Assembly: GCF_013315695.1 (NCBI RefSeq) | Contig: NZ_CP054353.1 | DNA length: 64,000 nucleotides | Reading direction: 5' to 3' (one strand) | Source of the DNA: Escherichia coli | Lineage (GTDB): Bacteria; Pseudomonadota; Gammaproteobacteria; Enterobacterales; Enterobacteriaceae | Shown here: in pieces, positions 30,001 to 33,000 of the stretch | Numbering within the stretch: the stretch's first letter is position 1 | Layout of the letters: each line of letters begins with the position of its first letter | Program-made: the position numbers

Positions 30001-33000
30001 CGGAATATTAAACGGACACCCGGCAATGCAGTAACCACAGCCGATGCAGTTTTCCGACTGGAAATCGACAATCCCGTTAGCGTACTGAATGATTGCACCA
30101 GCAGACGGGCACGCCTTCAGGCAGCCCGGATCTTCACAGTGCATACAGCCGTCTTTACGGATCAGCCACTCCAGCTTGCCGTTCTGTTCGGTTTCGCTAA
30201 AGCGCATCACAGTCCAGGACTTGGCGCTCAGATCGGCGGGGTTATCGTAAACCCCGACGCAGTGCCCCACTTCATCACGGATGTCGTTCCACTCCGAACA
30301 CGCCACCTGACAGGCTTTACAGCCGATACAGGTGGAAACGTCGATAAGTTTTGCGACTTCTGCTTTGTAATCACGCACCTGCGAAGGCGGCGTGATGGAG
30401 TTAGTTGCGGACCTTTTGATAATGTCCTGCGTTTCCATAGCCATCTGTTCGCCCCCTTACGCCTTCTCGATGTTGACTAAGAACGCTTTATATTCCGGCG
30501 TTTGCGAGTTTGCATCACCGACATTCGGCGTCAGAGTGTTAGCGATATAACCTTTACGCGCGACACCCTCAAAGCCCCAGTGGATCGGAATACCCACCGT
30601 TTCAACCTGCTGACCGTTTACATTCAGCGGTTTCAGACGGCGCGTTACCACCGCCACCGCGCGGATAAAGCCACGCTTGCTTGAGACAGTGACACGATCG
30701 CCATTATTAATGCCTTTCGCCGCCGCCAGCGTTTCGCTGATTTCCACAAACTGTTCCGGCTGAGCAATTGCGTTGAGCAACGCGTGCTTGGTCCATGTGT
30801 GGAAGTGCTCGGTCAGACGATAGGTCGTACCCACATACGGGAACTGCTCTTTTTTACCCATCCGCAGCGCGTCTTGTTCATACAGACGAACGACCGGGTT
30901 AGACACCACGTTCGGATGCAGCGGGTTAGTGCCCAGCGGCGTTTCGATTGGCTCGTAGTGTTCCGGGAACGGACCTTCCGCCATTTTGTTGATGGCAAAC
31001 AGGCGTCCCATCCCTTCCGGCTGCATGATAAACGGTCCGGTTGGTGTACCTGGCGCGGCATTGCCGAAGTCCGGAATATCGTTACCCGTCCACTTGCTGC
31101 CGTTCCACTGGATCAGCATCCGTTTCGGATCCCACGGTTTACCGTTGATATCCACCGAAGCACGGTTGTAGAGTACGCGACGGTTGAGCGGCCACGCCCA
31201 GGCCCATCCCAGCGTATTCCCCAGACCAGATGGGTCGGAGTTATCGCGGTTAGCCATCTGGTTGCCCTGCTCTGTCCAGCTACCGGTGTAGATCCAGCAA
31301 GACGATGCGGTTGTACCGTCATCACGCAGATGCGCAAAGCTACTCAGCAACTGACCTTTCTTCGCAATCAGCACGCCATTGGCATCATAGAGATCTTCCA
31401 GCGCGTAGCCGTTGTTCTCTTTAGCTACTTCGTCAGATTGCGGTTCGTGCGGCTGCTTGTAGTTCCAGCTCATCTTCATCAGCGGTTCTACGCCTTTACC
31501 ACCTTCGGCCTGGTACAACTCGCGCAGATGATGGTAGATACCCGCCAGAATTTCGCCGTCGTTACGCGCTTCGCCCGGCGCGTCCTGACCTTTCCAGTGC
31601 CACTGCAACCAGCGACCGGAGTTAGCGATAGAACCATCTTCTTCAGCAAAGCAGGTCGAAGGCAGACGGAATACTTCAGTCTGAATAGACGCCGGATCGA
31701 CATCGTTCGACTCGCCGTGGTTCTGCCAGAAGGTAGAAGTTTCAGTCACCAGCGGATCGATTACCACCATGTACTTCAGCTTGCTCAGGCAGCTCACCAC
31801 TTTGTTTTTGTCCGGGAAGGACGCAACCGGGTTAAAGCCCTGGCAGAAATAACCGGTGACTTTGCCTTCGTCCATCATGTTGAAATACTTGATGACGTCG
31901 TAGGTCTGGTCCCACTTCGGCAGCCAGTCGTAGCCCCAGTTGTTCTCTTTTTGCGCGGCATCGCCGTAGAAAGATTTCATCAGGCTAACGAAGAACTTCG
32001 GATAGTTGCTCCAGTAGTTCACCTGATCAGCCAGCGTCGCTTTCGGCGTATTCGCTTCCAGATACGACTGCAAATCAACCTGTTTTTCTGACGGCAGCGT
32101 CAGATAACCCGGCAGGCTGGTTGAGAGCAGACCTAAGTCGGTCAGGCCCTGAATGTTGGAGTGACCACGCAATGCGTTCACGCCGCCACCGGCCATACCC
32201 ATGTTACCGAGCAGCAGCTGGATCATCGCCATAGTACGGATGTTCTGCGCACCCACGGTGTGCTGCGTCCAGCCCAGCGCGTACAGGAAGGTGGTTGTGC
32301 GATCCGGTGCGCTGGTGGAGGCCAGCACTTCACACACTTTCAGGAAGTCGGCTTTTGGCGTACCGCAGATGTTTTCTACTACGTCCGGCGTGTAGCGGGA
32401 AACGTGCGCTTTCAGCAGGTTCCACACACAGCGCGGATGAGTCAGTGTTTCATCGCGTTTCGCATAGCCGTTTTCATCGAACTGATAGTTCCAGGACGAT
32501 TTATCGTACTGGCGTTTTTCAGCGTCATAACCGCTGAACAGGCCATCTTCGAAAGCAAAATCATCACGCACCAGCAGGCTGGCGTTGGTGTAATGCTTAA
32601 CGTATTCGGCGTTGATTTTGTTGTTTTCGATCAGGTAGCGCAAAACGCCAGACAGGAACGTAATGTCCGTACCGGAACGAATAGGTGCGTAAATATCCGC
32701 CACAGAAGCGGTACGCGTAAAACGGGGATCGACAACGATCAAGGTTGCATCGTTGTTGTTTTTCGCTTCCATCGCCCAGCGGAAACCGACGGGATGTGCT
32801 TCAGCAGCGTTACCGCCCATCACCATCACGACGTTAGCGTTTTTGATATCCACCCAGTGGTTGGTCATCGCACCGCGACCAAATGTTGGAGCAAGACTTG
32901 CTACCGTTGGTCCGTGTCAGACGCGCGCCTGGTTGTCTACCGCCAGCATCCCGAGGGAGCGGGCAAATTTTTGAGTCAGCATCCCGGTTTCGTTGCTGGC

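What the first reader, a model, noticed from the sequence alone, without database searches (positions are those of the whole stretch)
32870..32919. fdnG selenocysteine codon splits the gene in the ORF track
The ORFs 32917..33504 and 30457..32868 (minus strand) are one gene interrupted by an in-frame TGA, followed by a stem-loop-forming sequence in the mRNA. This is the known selenocysteine site of formate dehydrogenase-N, but automated callers would report a truncated Tat-signal fragment plus a headless catalytic ORF.
Basis: partly seen in the sequence, partly recalled or inferred. Interest (0 to 1): 0.3.

Follow-up and report, generated by a model that had tools for sequence, protein, structure and literature searches.

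The report
fdnG selenocysteine codon and SECIS hairpin
The in-frame TGA is the long-known selenocysteine codon (Sec196) of E. coli formate dehydrogenase-N, followed by its conserved recoding hairpin; it is real but ordinary textbook biology.

Summary
Confirmed, and already known. The minus-strand ORFs 32917..33504 and 30457..32868 are in one frame. Together they form a 1016-codon gene with a single internal TGA at 32919..32917 (codon 196). The window is an E. coli chromosome segment, 99.98% identical to strain MSB1_4I. RefSeq annotates this stretch as one CDS, fdnG, followed by fdnH and fdnI. The 59 nt at 32864..32922 (-) match Rfam SECIS_3 (RF01989) at 84.3 bits against a gathering score of 63, the only Rfam hit in the 64 kb. 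The hairpin's free energy alone is not above chance (z = -1.03). The real support is comparative. All 89 FdnG/FdoG-type loci recovered from diverse bacteria keep TGA. The upper helix is 97% paired, with compensatory changes at synonymous third positions. Only 0.6% of synonymous recodings of the peptide would give this hairpin, yet 57 of 60 distinct sequences have it. fdnG and its paralogue fdoG (75% identical overall) share a perfect 71-nt run starting 3 nt before the UGA. Bulged U17 and loop G23-U24 sit at the same distance from the UGA as in fdhF. Published mass spectrometry found Sec at position 196. The claim that callers split the gene holds for many public gene calls (the exact 195-aa fragment is on 436 contigs) but not for RefSeq annotation.

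The parts
30457..33504 (-). fdnG, the complete coding sequence for the formate dehydrogenase-N alpha subunit (1016 codons including the stop, Sec at codon 196)
   Evidence: Single-frame translation. RefSeq annotates one CDS in records identical over the 3.2-kb fdnG query. NCBIfam TIGR01553 scores 1624 bits (cut-off 814) in one stretch covering residues 2-1014. PDB 1KQF chain A matches residues 213-1015.
32917..32919 (-). In-frame UGA, the selenocysteine codon 196
   Evidence: All 89 FdnG/FdoG-type loci from diverse bacteria have TGA here. Mass spectrometry found Sec-196 in FdnG (PMC3636253).
32864..32922 (-). SECIS element, full-length match to Rfam RF01989 SECIS_3
   Evidence: 84.3 bits against gathering score 63, E = 8.9e-21, model positions 1-59 of 59. 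It is the only Rfam hit in the whole window.
32888..32905 (-). Upper stem-loop, nt 15-32 counted from the U of UGA: G15-C32, G16-C31, bulged U17 (32903), A18-U30, G19-C29, C20-G28, A21-U27, A22-U26, and loop G23 U24 C25 (32897..32895). This is the presumed SelB-binding minihelix.
   Evidence: The MFE and Rfam structures agree here. 97.4% of cells are paired, and two pairs show compensatory changes across 60 distinct sequences. Only 0.59% of synonymous recodings give this hairpin, yet 57 of 60 sequences have it. The roles of U17, G23 and U24 come from the literature on fdhF (PMC8659212).
32872..32917 (-). Span that encloses the lower stem, which flanks the upper hairpin. In the MFE register the 5' arm is nt 3-13 (32917..32907) and the 3' arm is nt 38-48 (32882..32872). 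It is weak and its register is ambiguous in E. coli.
   Evidence: MFE register. In the Rfam register E. coli has A-C and A-G mismatches and -7.2 kcal/mol. Across species 84-85% of cells are paired in either register, with essentially no two-sided changes.
32852..32922 (-). 71-nt run that is 100% identical between fdnG (window) and the paralogue fdoG (K-12). It is the longest such run in genes that are 74.6% identical overall.
   Evidence: The next longest run is 35 nt. Synonymous codon identity is 58% gene-wide and 21 of 21 here.
32917..33504 (-). The '195-aa ORF', which is the N-terminal part of FdnG. It holds the twin-arginine motif SRRQFFK (residues 4-10), the Fe4S4 domain (residues 46-104) and the start of the molybdopterin domain.
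   Evidence: This exact fragment exists as a separate protein record on 436 contigs.
30457..32868 (-). The '803-aa ORF', which is the C-terminal part of FdnG. It begins at the internal Met213 only as an artefact of ORF listing.
   Evidence: PF00384 continues here from profile position 99, and PF01568 follows. The exact fragment is on 4 contigs.
29560..30444 (-). fdnH, the formate dehydrogenase-N beta (Fe-S) subunit
   Evidence: TIGR01582 scores 482 bits. RefSeq annotation.
28914..29567 (-). fdnI, the formate dehydrogenase-N gamma (cytochrome b) subunit. It identifies the operon as fdn rather than fdo.
   Evidence: NF007558 (FDH-N gamma) scores 486 bits against cut-off 339. NF007924 (FdoI) scores 270 bits, below its cut-off of 341.

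Best explanation
The TGA at 32919..32917 (-) is codon 196 of fdnG. fdnG encodes the periplasmic, Tat-exported, molybdenum-containing catalytic subunit of nitrate-inducible formate dehydrogenase-N in E. coli. The codon is read as selenocysteine rather than as stop. The mRNA immediately 3' of the UGA folds into a SECIS hairpin. Its upper minihelix (nt 15-32, with bulged U17 and loop G23-U24) is inferred to be bound by the C-terminal domain of the specialised elongation factor SelB. SelB would then deliver Sec-tRNA(Sec) (selC) to the UGA in the ribosomal A site, in competition with release factor 2. Shown here: the single gene, the in-frame UGA, the SECIS match, its conservation and covariation, and the presence of selB and selC throughout the species. 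Taken from the literature: Sec is actually inserted at position 196, and U17 and G23 are SelB contacts. Inferred: SelB binds this particular copy in this strain.
For: The gene is one frame with a single internal stop. The 3.2-kb fdnG region is 100% identical to E. coli chromosomes in which RefSeq annotates one fdnG CDS followed by fdnH and fdnI, and the whole 64-kb window is 99.978% identical to strain MSB1_4I. TIGR01553 matches in one stretch over residues 2-1014 at 1624 bits. The Pfam molybdopterin domain is split by the stop. PDB 1KQF holds the 1015-residue protein. Rfam SECIS_3 scores 84.3 bits against a gathering score of 63. K-12 fdoG gives the same score, fdhF gives SECIS_2, and the two Cys-type paralogue loci scanned give nothing. 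All 89 FdnG/FdoG-type loci from Gamma-, Beta- and Alphaproteobacteria, Actinomycetota, Terriglobia and Geobacter relatives have TGA. The upper helix is 97.4% paired. Pairs 21/33 (GC 45, AU 9, CG 2, GU 2) and 24/30 (AU 42, CG 13, GC 3) change on both sides, and both partners are synonymous third positions. Only 0.59% of synonymous recodings give the hairpin with U17, G23 and U24, against 57 of 60 observed. fdnG and fdoG share a 71-nt perfect run at the SECIS. The 91 nt around the UGA are at least 99% identical in 5366 of 5433 E. coli records. selB is in 5425 and selC in 5424 of 5426 E. coli genomes. The literature reports UGA as Sec and the stem-loop as essential in fdnG (Berg et al. 1991, cited in PMC13188914). 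Mass spectrometry found Sec-196 and never Cys (PMC3636253). U17, G23 and U24 and the 17-nt minimal element come from PMC8659212.
Against: The thermodynamic stability of the 50-nt segment is not above shuffled controls (z = -1.03). The lower stem is register-ambiguous in E. coli, with two non-standard pairs in the Rfam register, and shows essentially no two-sided covariation across species. Four of the seven upper-stem pairs are fixed by the amino-acid sequence, so part of the hairpin comes free with the peptide. No experiment on this strain was available. selB and selC lie outside the window and were checked only at the species level.
Confidence: 0.97

Rival explanations
1. The TGA is a genuine nonsense mutation or a sequencing error, so fdnG is a pseudogene in this strain and yields only a 195-aa fragment.
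For: A standard ORF lister and many public gene calls report two pieces. The same window holds a real nonsense pseudogene, yncG, with an internal TAG at 54213..54211.
Against: The 91 nt around the TGA are at least 99% identical in 5366 of 5433 E. coli records. All 89 FdnG/FdoG-type loci from distant phyla have TGA. A SECIS scores above the Rfam threshold directly after the TGA, whereas yncG has TAG and the window-wide Rfam scan found no other SECIS. The downstream 820 codons are intact and are a full-length match to TIGR01553. Sec-196 has been seen by mass spectrometry.
Confidence: 0.01
2. The hairpin is a by-product of the conserved peptide HGPTVASLAPTFGRG rather than a selected RNA element. 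Recoding of the UGA would then depend on something else.
For: Four of the seven upper-stem pairs (counting G16-C31, G19-C29 and C20-G28 fully, and half of the others) are dictated by the amino acids. The folding energy is not better than shuffles. Cys-type fdhF paralogues fold as stably as Sec-type ones.
Against: Only 0.59% of synonymous recodings give the full upper hairpin with U17, G23 and U24, yet 57 of 60 distinct sequences have it. Compensatory double changes occur at synonymous third positions. Synonymous sites are frozen between fdnG and fdoG, 21 of 21 codons against 58% gene-wide. They are also frozen among 16 enterobacterial loci whose flanks are only 77-82% identical. That set was chosen for identity in the block, so the comparison is illustrative only. 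Published mutagenesis of the fdnG stem-loop is cited.
Confidence: 0.02
3. The UGA acts partly as a programmed stop. Under selenium limitation the 195-aa product, carrying the Tat signal and the Fe4S4 domain, would be a functional or regulatory protein, so the split ORFs would reflect two real products.
For: The literature states that translation of fdnG terminates at codon 196 when Sec-tRNA(Sec) is absent (PMC3636253). UGA recoding is reported to be inefficient (PMC8659212).
Against: Nothing here supports a function for the fragment. The stop cuts through the molybdopterin domain. There is no independent conservation signal for a stand-alone fragment. The 803-aa 'ORF' has no start signal of its own and begins at an internal Met only because of how ORFs are listed.
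Confidence: 0.03

Closest known systems
E. coli K-12 fdnG Sec196 / SECIS (Berg, Li, Heider and Stewart 1991; Berg, Baron and Stewart 1991; PDB 1KQF)
   Same: Same gene, same codon position (196), same operon (fdnGHI) and the same neighbours: yddG upstream and yddM, adhP and maeA downstream. The 91 nt around the UGA are 100% identical to K-12 strains (rows H19 and H37).
   Different: Only strain-level differences elsewhere in the protein. The best matches are clinical isolates AF3 and MSB1_4I rather than K-12. The differences from K-12 that I recall (K44E, E127D) were not checked with a tool.
E. coli fdoG SECIS (formate dehydrogenase-O, paralogue)
   Same: UGA at codon 196. The sequence from 3 nt before the UGA to 65 nt after it is identical, a 71-nt run. 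The Rfam SECIS_3 score is the same, 84.3 bits.
   Different: The genes are 74.6% (nt) and 76.7% (aa) identical overall. The locus differs (fdhD-fdoGHI-fdhE). The gamma subunit family differs: NF007924 for fdoI against NF007558 for fdnI.
E. coli fdhF SECIS (formate dehydrogenase-H; Rfam RF01988 SECIS_2), the reference bacterial SECIS
   Same: The hairpin lies immediately 3' of the UGA. Both have G15-G16 pairing to CC, a bulged U at nt 17, G23-U24 in the apical loop at the same distance from the UGA, and the peptide context RV-U-HGP.
   Different: The window scores only 28.8 bits on SECIS_2, against a threshold of 70. The upper stem has one more base pair and a 3-nt GUC loop instead of the 4-nt GGUC loop. 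The lower-stem sequence and the encoded peptide differ: TVASLAPTFGRG against SVAGLHQSVGNG.
Cys-type FdhF-like paralogues (TGY at the same position) in Citrobacter, Enterobacter, Yersinia and Klebsiella
   Same: Homologous active-site context, CARV-C-HGPSVAGL.
   Different: TGT or TGC replaces TGA. No conserved apical hairpin is seen, and the two loci scanned gave no Rfam SECIS hit, although their folding energy is similar.

Membership tests
Rfam RF01989 SECIS_3 (fdnG/fdoG-type bacterial SECIS) | Covariance-model score at or above the curated gathering score (63 bits) over the full model | tested here: met
   84.3 bits, model positions 1-59 of 59, at 32864..32922 (-).
Rfam RF01988 SECIS_2 (fdhF-type SECIS) | Score at or above the gathering score (70 bits) | tested here: not met
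   28.8 bits. K-12 fdhF itself scores 87.1 bits. The window element is related to this sub-family but is not a member of it.
Bacterial SECIS consensus model (bSECIS, as summarised in PMC13188914 Fig. 2) | Apical loop of 3-9 nt and upper stem of 4-16 bp | tested here: met
   3-nt loop GUC. The upper stem has 7 bp with one bulged U. The criteria were read.
Bacterial SECIS consensus model (bSECIS) | [quoted passage not shown] | tested here: met
   The loop begins G23 U24.
Bacterial SECIS consensus model (bSECIS) | [quoted passage not shown] | tested here: met
   19 nt (nt 4-22) lie between the UGA and loop nt 23.
Bacterial SECIS consensus model (bSECIS) | MFE of -7.5 kcal/mol or lower | tested here: met
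   -14.6 kcal/mol. This criterion is not specific: shuffles average -12.0.
E. coli SelB-dependent minimal SECIS | 17-18-nt upper stem-loop starting 11 nt after the UGA, with bulged U17 and G23/U24 in the loop | tested here: met
   nt 15-32 form the stem-loop. U17 is unambiguously bulged, and G23 and U24 are in the loop. Definition from PMC8659212.
E. coli SelB-dependent minimal SECIS | Physical binding by SelB and dependence of read-through on selB, selC, selA and selD | not testable with these tools
   Only the presence of selB (5425 of 5426 genomes) and selC (5424 of 5426) in the species was shown. Dependence is known from the literature.
Formate dehydrogenase-N alpha subunit (NCBIfam TIGR01553 equivalog) | Whole-protein score above the curated cut-off (814 bits) | tested here: met
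   1624.2 bits over residues 2-1014 and profile positions 1-1009 in one stretch, with Cys substituted for Sec in the query.
Formate dehydrogenase-N (fdn) as opposed to formate dehydrogenase-O (fdo) | Operon partners and locus: fdnH, fdnI (NF007558) and the yddG/yddM/adhP neighbourhood | tested here: met
   fdnI scores 486 bits on NF007558 (cut-off 339) and 270 bits on NF007924, below its cut-off of 341. Synteny. TIGR01553 and the RefSeq gene name 'fdnG' do not separate the two paralogues.
Selenoprotein | Selenocysteine actually present at the UGA-encoded position | not testable with these tools
   Published mass spectrometry on E. coli MC4100 found Sec-196 in FdnG and never Cys (PMC3636253). 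This has not been measured in this strain.

The most novel reading that the evidence does not exclude
The complete freezing of every synonymous site across the 71-nt block shared by fdnG and fdoG might reflect more than SelB binding to the upper minihelix. The same 62 nt recur across several enterobacterial genera whose flanks are only 77-82% identical. Possible extra constraints are exact ribosome-to-SECIS spacing and unfolding kinetics, recurrent gene conversion between the paralogues, or a second RNA-level function. The published minimal element needs only about 17 nt, and the lower stem shows no convincing covariation, so the full extent of the conservation is not explained by what I tested.
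Probability: 0.1. Interest if true: 0.3.

Novelty: already known. Interest (0 to 1): 0.05.

Why it matters
It matters only as an annotation caveat. Gene callers that treat UGA as stop cut fdnG into a 195-aa and an 803-aa protein. Such fragments have entered public protein collections: the exact N-fragment is on 436 contigs, and one record for a 195-aa cluster member is named 'sulfate ABC transporter substrate-binding protein'. A practical point for scans follows. Hairpin free energy does not separate a real SECIS from background, or Sec-type from Cys-type paralogues. A covariance model, or a check for compensatory synonymous changes, does separate them. There is no new biology.

Tried and rejected
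(1) Folding energy as evidence. The 50-nt MFE of -14.6 has z = -1.03. Sec-type and Cys-type fdhF paralogues have the same mean MFE. I rejected it as a discriminating test.

(2) The lower stem. I tested both the Rfam register and the E. coli MFE register on 60 sequences. Neither is clearly better (85.4% against 83.7% of cells paired), and there is almost no two-sided variation. I do not claim the lower stem as a supported structure.

(3) ORF geometry as evidence. Other same-frame open segments separated by one stop exist in the window, including fdnG-fdnH and antisense frames. Geometry alone is therefore not diagnostic.

(4) I looked for Cys variants (TGY) among FdnG/FdoG-type loci as a natural control. 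There were none among 89. I used the fdhF-type Cys paralogues instead.

(5) I tried to read Liu et al. 1998 (PMC147357) for the minimal SECIS. It is not held, so I relied on the review PMC8659212.

(6) A five-term literature search returned nothing.

(7) I checked whether yncG's internal stop in the same window might be a second recoding site. It is TAG with no SECIS, an ordinary pseudogene.

(8) The flank comparison of 16 loci with an identical 62-nt block is biased, because the loci were chosen for that identity. I report it only as an illustration.
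Full report
**Observation.** On the minus strand the window reads ...CGC GTC TGA CAC GGA CCA ACG GTA GCA AGT CTT GCT CCA ACA TTT GGT CGC GGT GCG ATG ACC.... The TGA occupies 32919..32917. The mechanical ORF list gives 32917..33504 (195 aa) and 30457..32868 (803 aa) on the minus strand. The second ORF begins at an internal ATG (Met213) only because an ORF lister needs a start codon. Translating 30457..33504 in one frame gives 1016 codons with a single internal stop at codon 196, in the context ...DNQARV*HGPTVASLAPTFGRGAMTNHW....

**Identity of the gene.**
- The 3.2 kb around the gene are 100% identical to E. coli chromosomes, and 5425 of 5426 complete E. coli genomes hold it.
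- The whole 64-kb window is collinear with strain MSB1_4I (NZ_LR898874.1) at 99.978%, with 14 mismatches and no gaps.
- RefSeq annotates one CDS of 3048 nt, fdnG, followed by fdnH and fdnI. yddG lies upstream, and yddM, adhP and maeA lie downstream.
- The protein (with Cys substituted for Sec in the query) matches NCBIfam TIGR01553 at 1624 bits against a cut-off of 814. The match is one stretch over residues 2-1014.
- The Pfam molybdopterin domain PF00384 is cut by the stop. Profile positions 1-68 fall in the 195-aa piece and 99-300 in the 803-aa piece.
- PDB 1KQF/1KQG hold the 1015-residue protein.
- TIGR01553 and the RefSeq gene name do not separate fdnG from its paralogue fdoG: RefSeq labels an fdoG as 'fdnG' in strain 97.3. 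I therefore used the gamma subunit and synteny. The window's fdnI scores 486 bits on NF007558 (FDH-N gamma, cut-off 339). It scores only 270 bits on NF007924 (FdoI, cut-off 341). This is the fdn operon.

**The RNA element.** The 50 nt from the UGA fold into a hairpin of -14.6 kcal/mol. That is not unusual for the composition: shuffles average -12.0, z = -1.03, and 25 of 200 fold as well.

The decisive results are these:
- **Rfam match.** Rfam SECIS_3 (RF01989) matches 32864..32922 (-) full length at 84.3 bits against a gathering score of 63. It is the only Rfam hit above threshold in the 64 kb.
- **Related loci.** K-12 fdoG gives the same score. K-12 fdhF hits SECIS_2 at 87.1 bits. FdnG-type loci from Pseudomonas, a Geobacter relative and an actinomycete hit SECIS_3. 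The two Cys-type fdhF paralogue loci scanned hit nothing.
- **fdhF model.** The window scores only 28.8 bits on the fdhF-type model SECIS_2, against a threshold of 70.

**Anatomy**, numbered from the U of UGA:
- The upper stem is G15-C32, G16-C31, bulged U17, A18-U30, G19-C29, C20-G28, A21-U27, A22-U26, with loop G23 U24 C25. In window coordinates it spans 32905..32888.
- fdhF has G15/G16 pairing with CC, a bulged U17 and loop GGUC, so U17, G23 and U24 sit at the same distances from the UGA. The fdnG stem has one more pair and a 3-nt loop.
- According to the review PMC8659212, the minimal fdhF SECIS is the 17-nt upper stem-loop 11 nt after the UGA. U17 and G23 are the SelB contacts, and lower-stem pairing is largely dispensable.
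- The window element also meets all four criteria of the bSECIS consensus model quoted in PMC13188914 (loop 3-9 nt, G in the first two loop positions, spacing 16-37 nt, MFE of -7.5 or lower).

- 89 loci are FdnG/FdoG-type and all have TGA. The fdhF-type loci split into 11 TGA and 12 TGY.
- I counted pairs on the 60 distinct 62-nt FdnG-type sequences (alignment A1). The upper helix is paired in 97.4% of cells.
- Two upper-helix pairs change on both sides: columns 21/33 (GC 45, AU 9, CG 2, GU 2) and 24/30 (AU 42, CG 13, GC 3). Slid controls drop to 26-49% paired.
- These four columns are the third positions of the Val201, Ala205, Ala202 and Leu204 codons, so the changes are synonymous and compensatory.
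- Enumerating all 36,864 synonymous recodings of TVASLAP shows that only 0.59% give the full upper hairpin with U17, G23 and U24. Yet 57 of 60 distinct sequences have it.
- Within E. coli, fdnG and fdoG are 74.6% identical in nucleotides, and 58% of same-amino-acid codons are identical. Their longest perfect run, 71 nt at 32922..32852, starts 3 nt before the UGA and is twice the next longest.
- The lower stem is not well supported. In the Rfam register E. coli has A-C and A-G mismatches and -7.2 kcal/mol. Across species 84-85% of cells pair in either register, with almost no two-sided change.

**Trans-acting factors and direct evidence.** selB is present in 5425 and selC (tRNA-Sec) in 5424 of 5426 E. 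coli genomes. Neither lies in the window. The UGA-as-Sec assignment and the requirement for the stem-loop in fdnG were published in 1991 (Berg et al., JBC 266:22380 and 22386, cited in PMC13188914). Mass spectrometry of purified Fdh-N found Sec at position 196 and never Cys. In a selC mutant translation stops at codon 196 (PMC3636253).

**The annotation claim.** It is partly right. RefSeq annotation handles the Sec codon. The exact 195-aa fragment nevertheless exists as a stand-alone protein on 436 contigs in NCBI, JGI, ENA and Logan data, and the exact 803-aa fragment on 4. One record for a 195-aa cluster member is named 'sulfate ABC transporter substrate-binding protein'. PMC13188914 describes this as a general problem. 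The N-terminal piece is more than a Tat signal. It carries SRRQFFK, the Fe4S4 domain and the start of the molybdopterin domain.

**Rivals.**
- A nonsense mutation or sequencing error is excluded by conservation of the TGA within the species and across phyla, by the SECIS and by the intact downstream 820 codons. For contrast, yncG in the same window has an internal TAG and no SECIS.
- A hairpin arising only from peptide conservation is excluded by the synonymous-site results.
- A functional 195-aa termination product is not excluded, but nothing supports it.

**Verdict.** The finding is real, correctly interpreted and already known in full. [quoted passage not shown] Interest is low. The only loose end is that conservation extends well beyond the 17-nt minimal element: the 71-nt block is identical in both paralogues, and the same 62 nt recur across several enterobacterial genera. 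I did not explain that extent.

Noticed in passing
window 32852-32922 (-) compared with L002 (K-12 fdoG): fdnG and fdoG are 74.6% identical overall but share a perfect 71-nt run from 3 nt before the UGA. 16 loci from several enterobacterial genera carry the identical 62 nt, while their flanks are only 77-82% identical. Conservation reaches far beyond the 17-nt minimal SECIS.
   Followed up: partly
window 54211-54213 (-), within yncG 53866-54483: yncG (a glutathione S-transferase homologue) has an in-frame TAG at codon 91. RefSeq marks it as a pseudogene ('internal stop'). There is no SECIS, so it is an ordinary nonsense pseudogene and a useful contrast to the fdnG UGA.
   Followed up: yes
window 14439-15210, 50976-51750, 59802-60573: Three IS1A copies. 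One truncates dosP (its N-terminus is missing, remnant at about 15195-17459). One splits an alkyl/aryl-sulfatase / MBL-fold gene into two annotated pseudogene halves. One sits between mcbR and pqqU.
   Followed up: partly
L128 (NZ_CP061758.1, E. coli O68:H12 strain 97.3) 2937-5987: RefSeq names this gene 'fdnG, formate dehydrogenase-N subunit alpha', although it is flanked by fdhD, fdoH and fdoI, so it is really fdoG. This strain shows only one match to the SECIS region, so it appears to lack fdnGHI.
   Followed up: partly
protein cluster (P0004, EFN8991448.1): A 195-aa member of the FdnG fragment cluster is deposited under the name 'sulfate ABC transporter substrate-binding protein'. This is a mis-annotation that follows from splitting the gene at the UGA.
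   Followed up: no
L012, L020, L038, L042, L055, L066, L075, L077, L100 (Yersinia, Citrobacter, Enterobacter, Superficieibacter, Klebsiella): These are fdhF-like paralogues with TGT or TGC (Cys) at the Sec position, several of them in genomes that also carry a Sec-type fdhF. They fold as stably as the Sec forms (-14.2 against -14.1 kcal/mol) but lack the conserved GGUC hairpin. The two scanned (L012, L020) gave no Rfam SECIS hit.
   Followed up: partly
L049 3495-3556 (+) and L052 12006-12067 (+) (a Proteobacteria MAG and a Desulfobacteraceae MAG): Both have TGA in an FdnG-like context (HGPSVAALGESFGRGSMTNHY) but do not form the SECIS_3 upper hairpin in register. They presumably carry a different SECIS class.
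   Followed up: no
window 34875-35975 (+) and 36139-38724: A porin that RefSeq names 'ompC' lies next to yddG (I recall this as the ompN locus of K-12; not checked). Beside it are one intact leucine-rich-repeat protein gene and two LRR gene fragments annotated as pseudogenes.
   Followed up: no
window 33505-33600 (-), upstream of fdnG: The sequence TTGATTTCGCGCAA upstream of the fdnG start resembles an FNR half-site pair (TTGAT-N4-ATCAA). That would fit anaerobic control of fdnG as I recall it. It was read by eye only.
   Followed up: no
L003 25-432 (+) (K-12, beside yjcO near fdhF): Four tandem Rfam naRNA4 (RF02564) matches, 64-77 bits, in the intergenic region. They are unrelated to the finding.
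   Followed up: no
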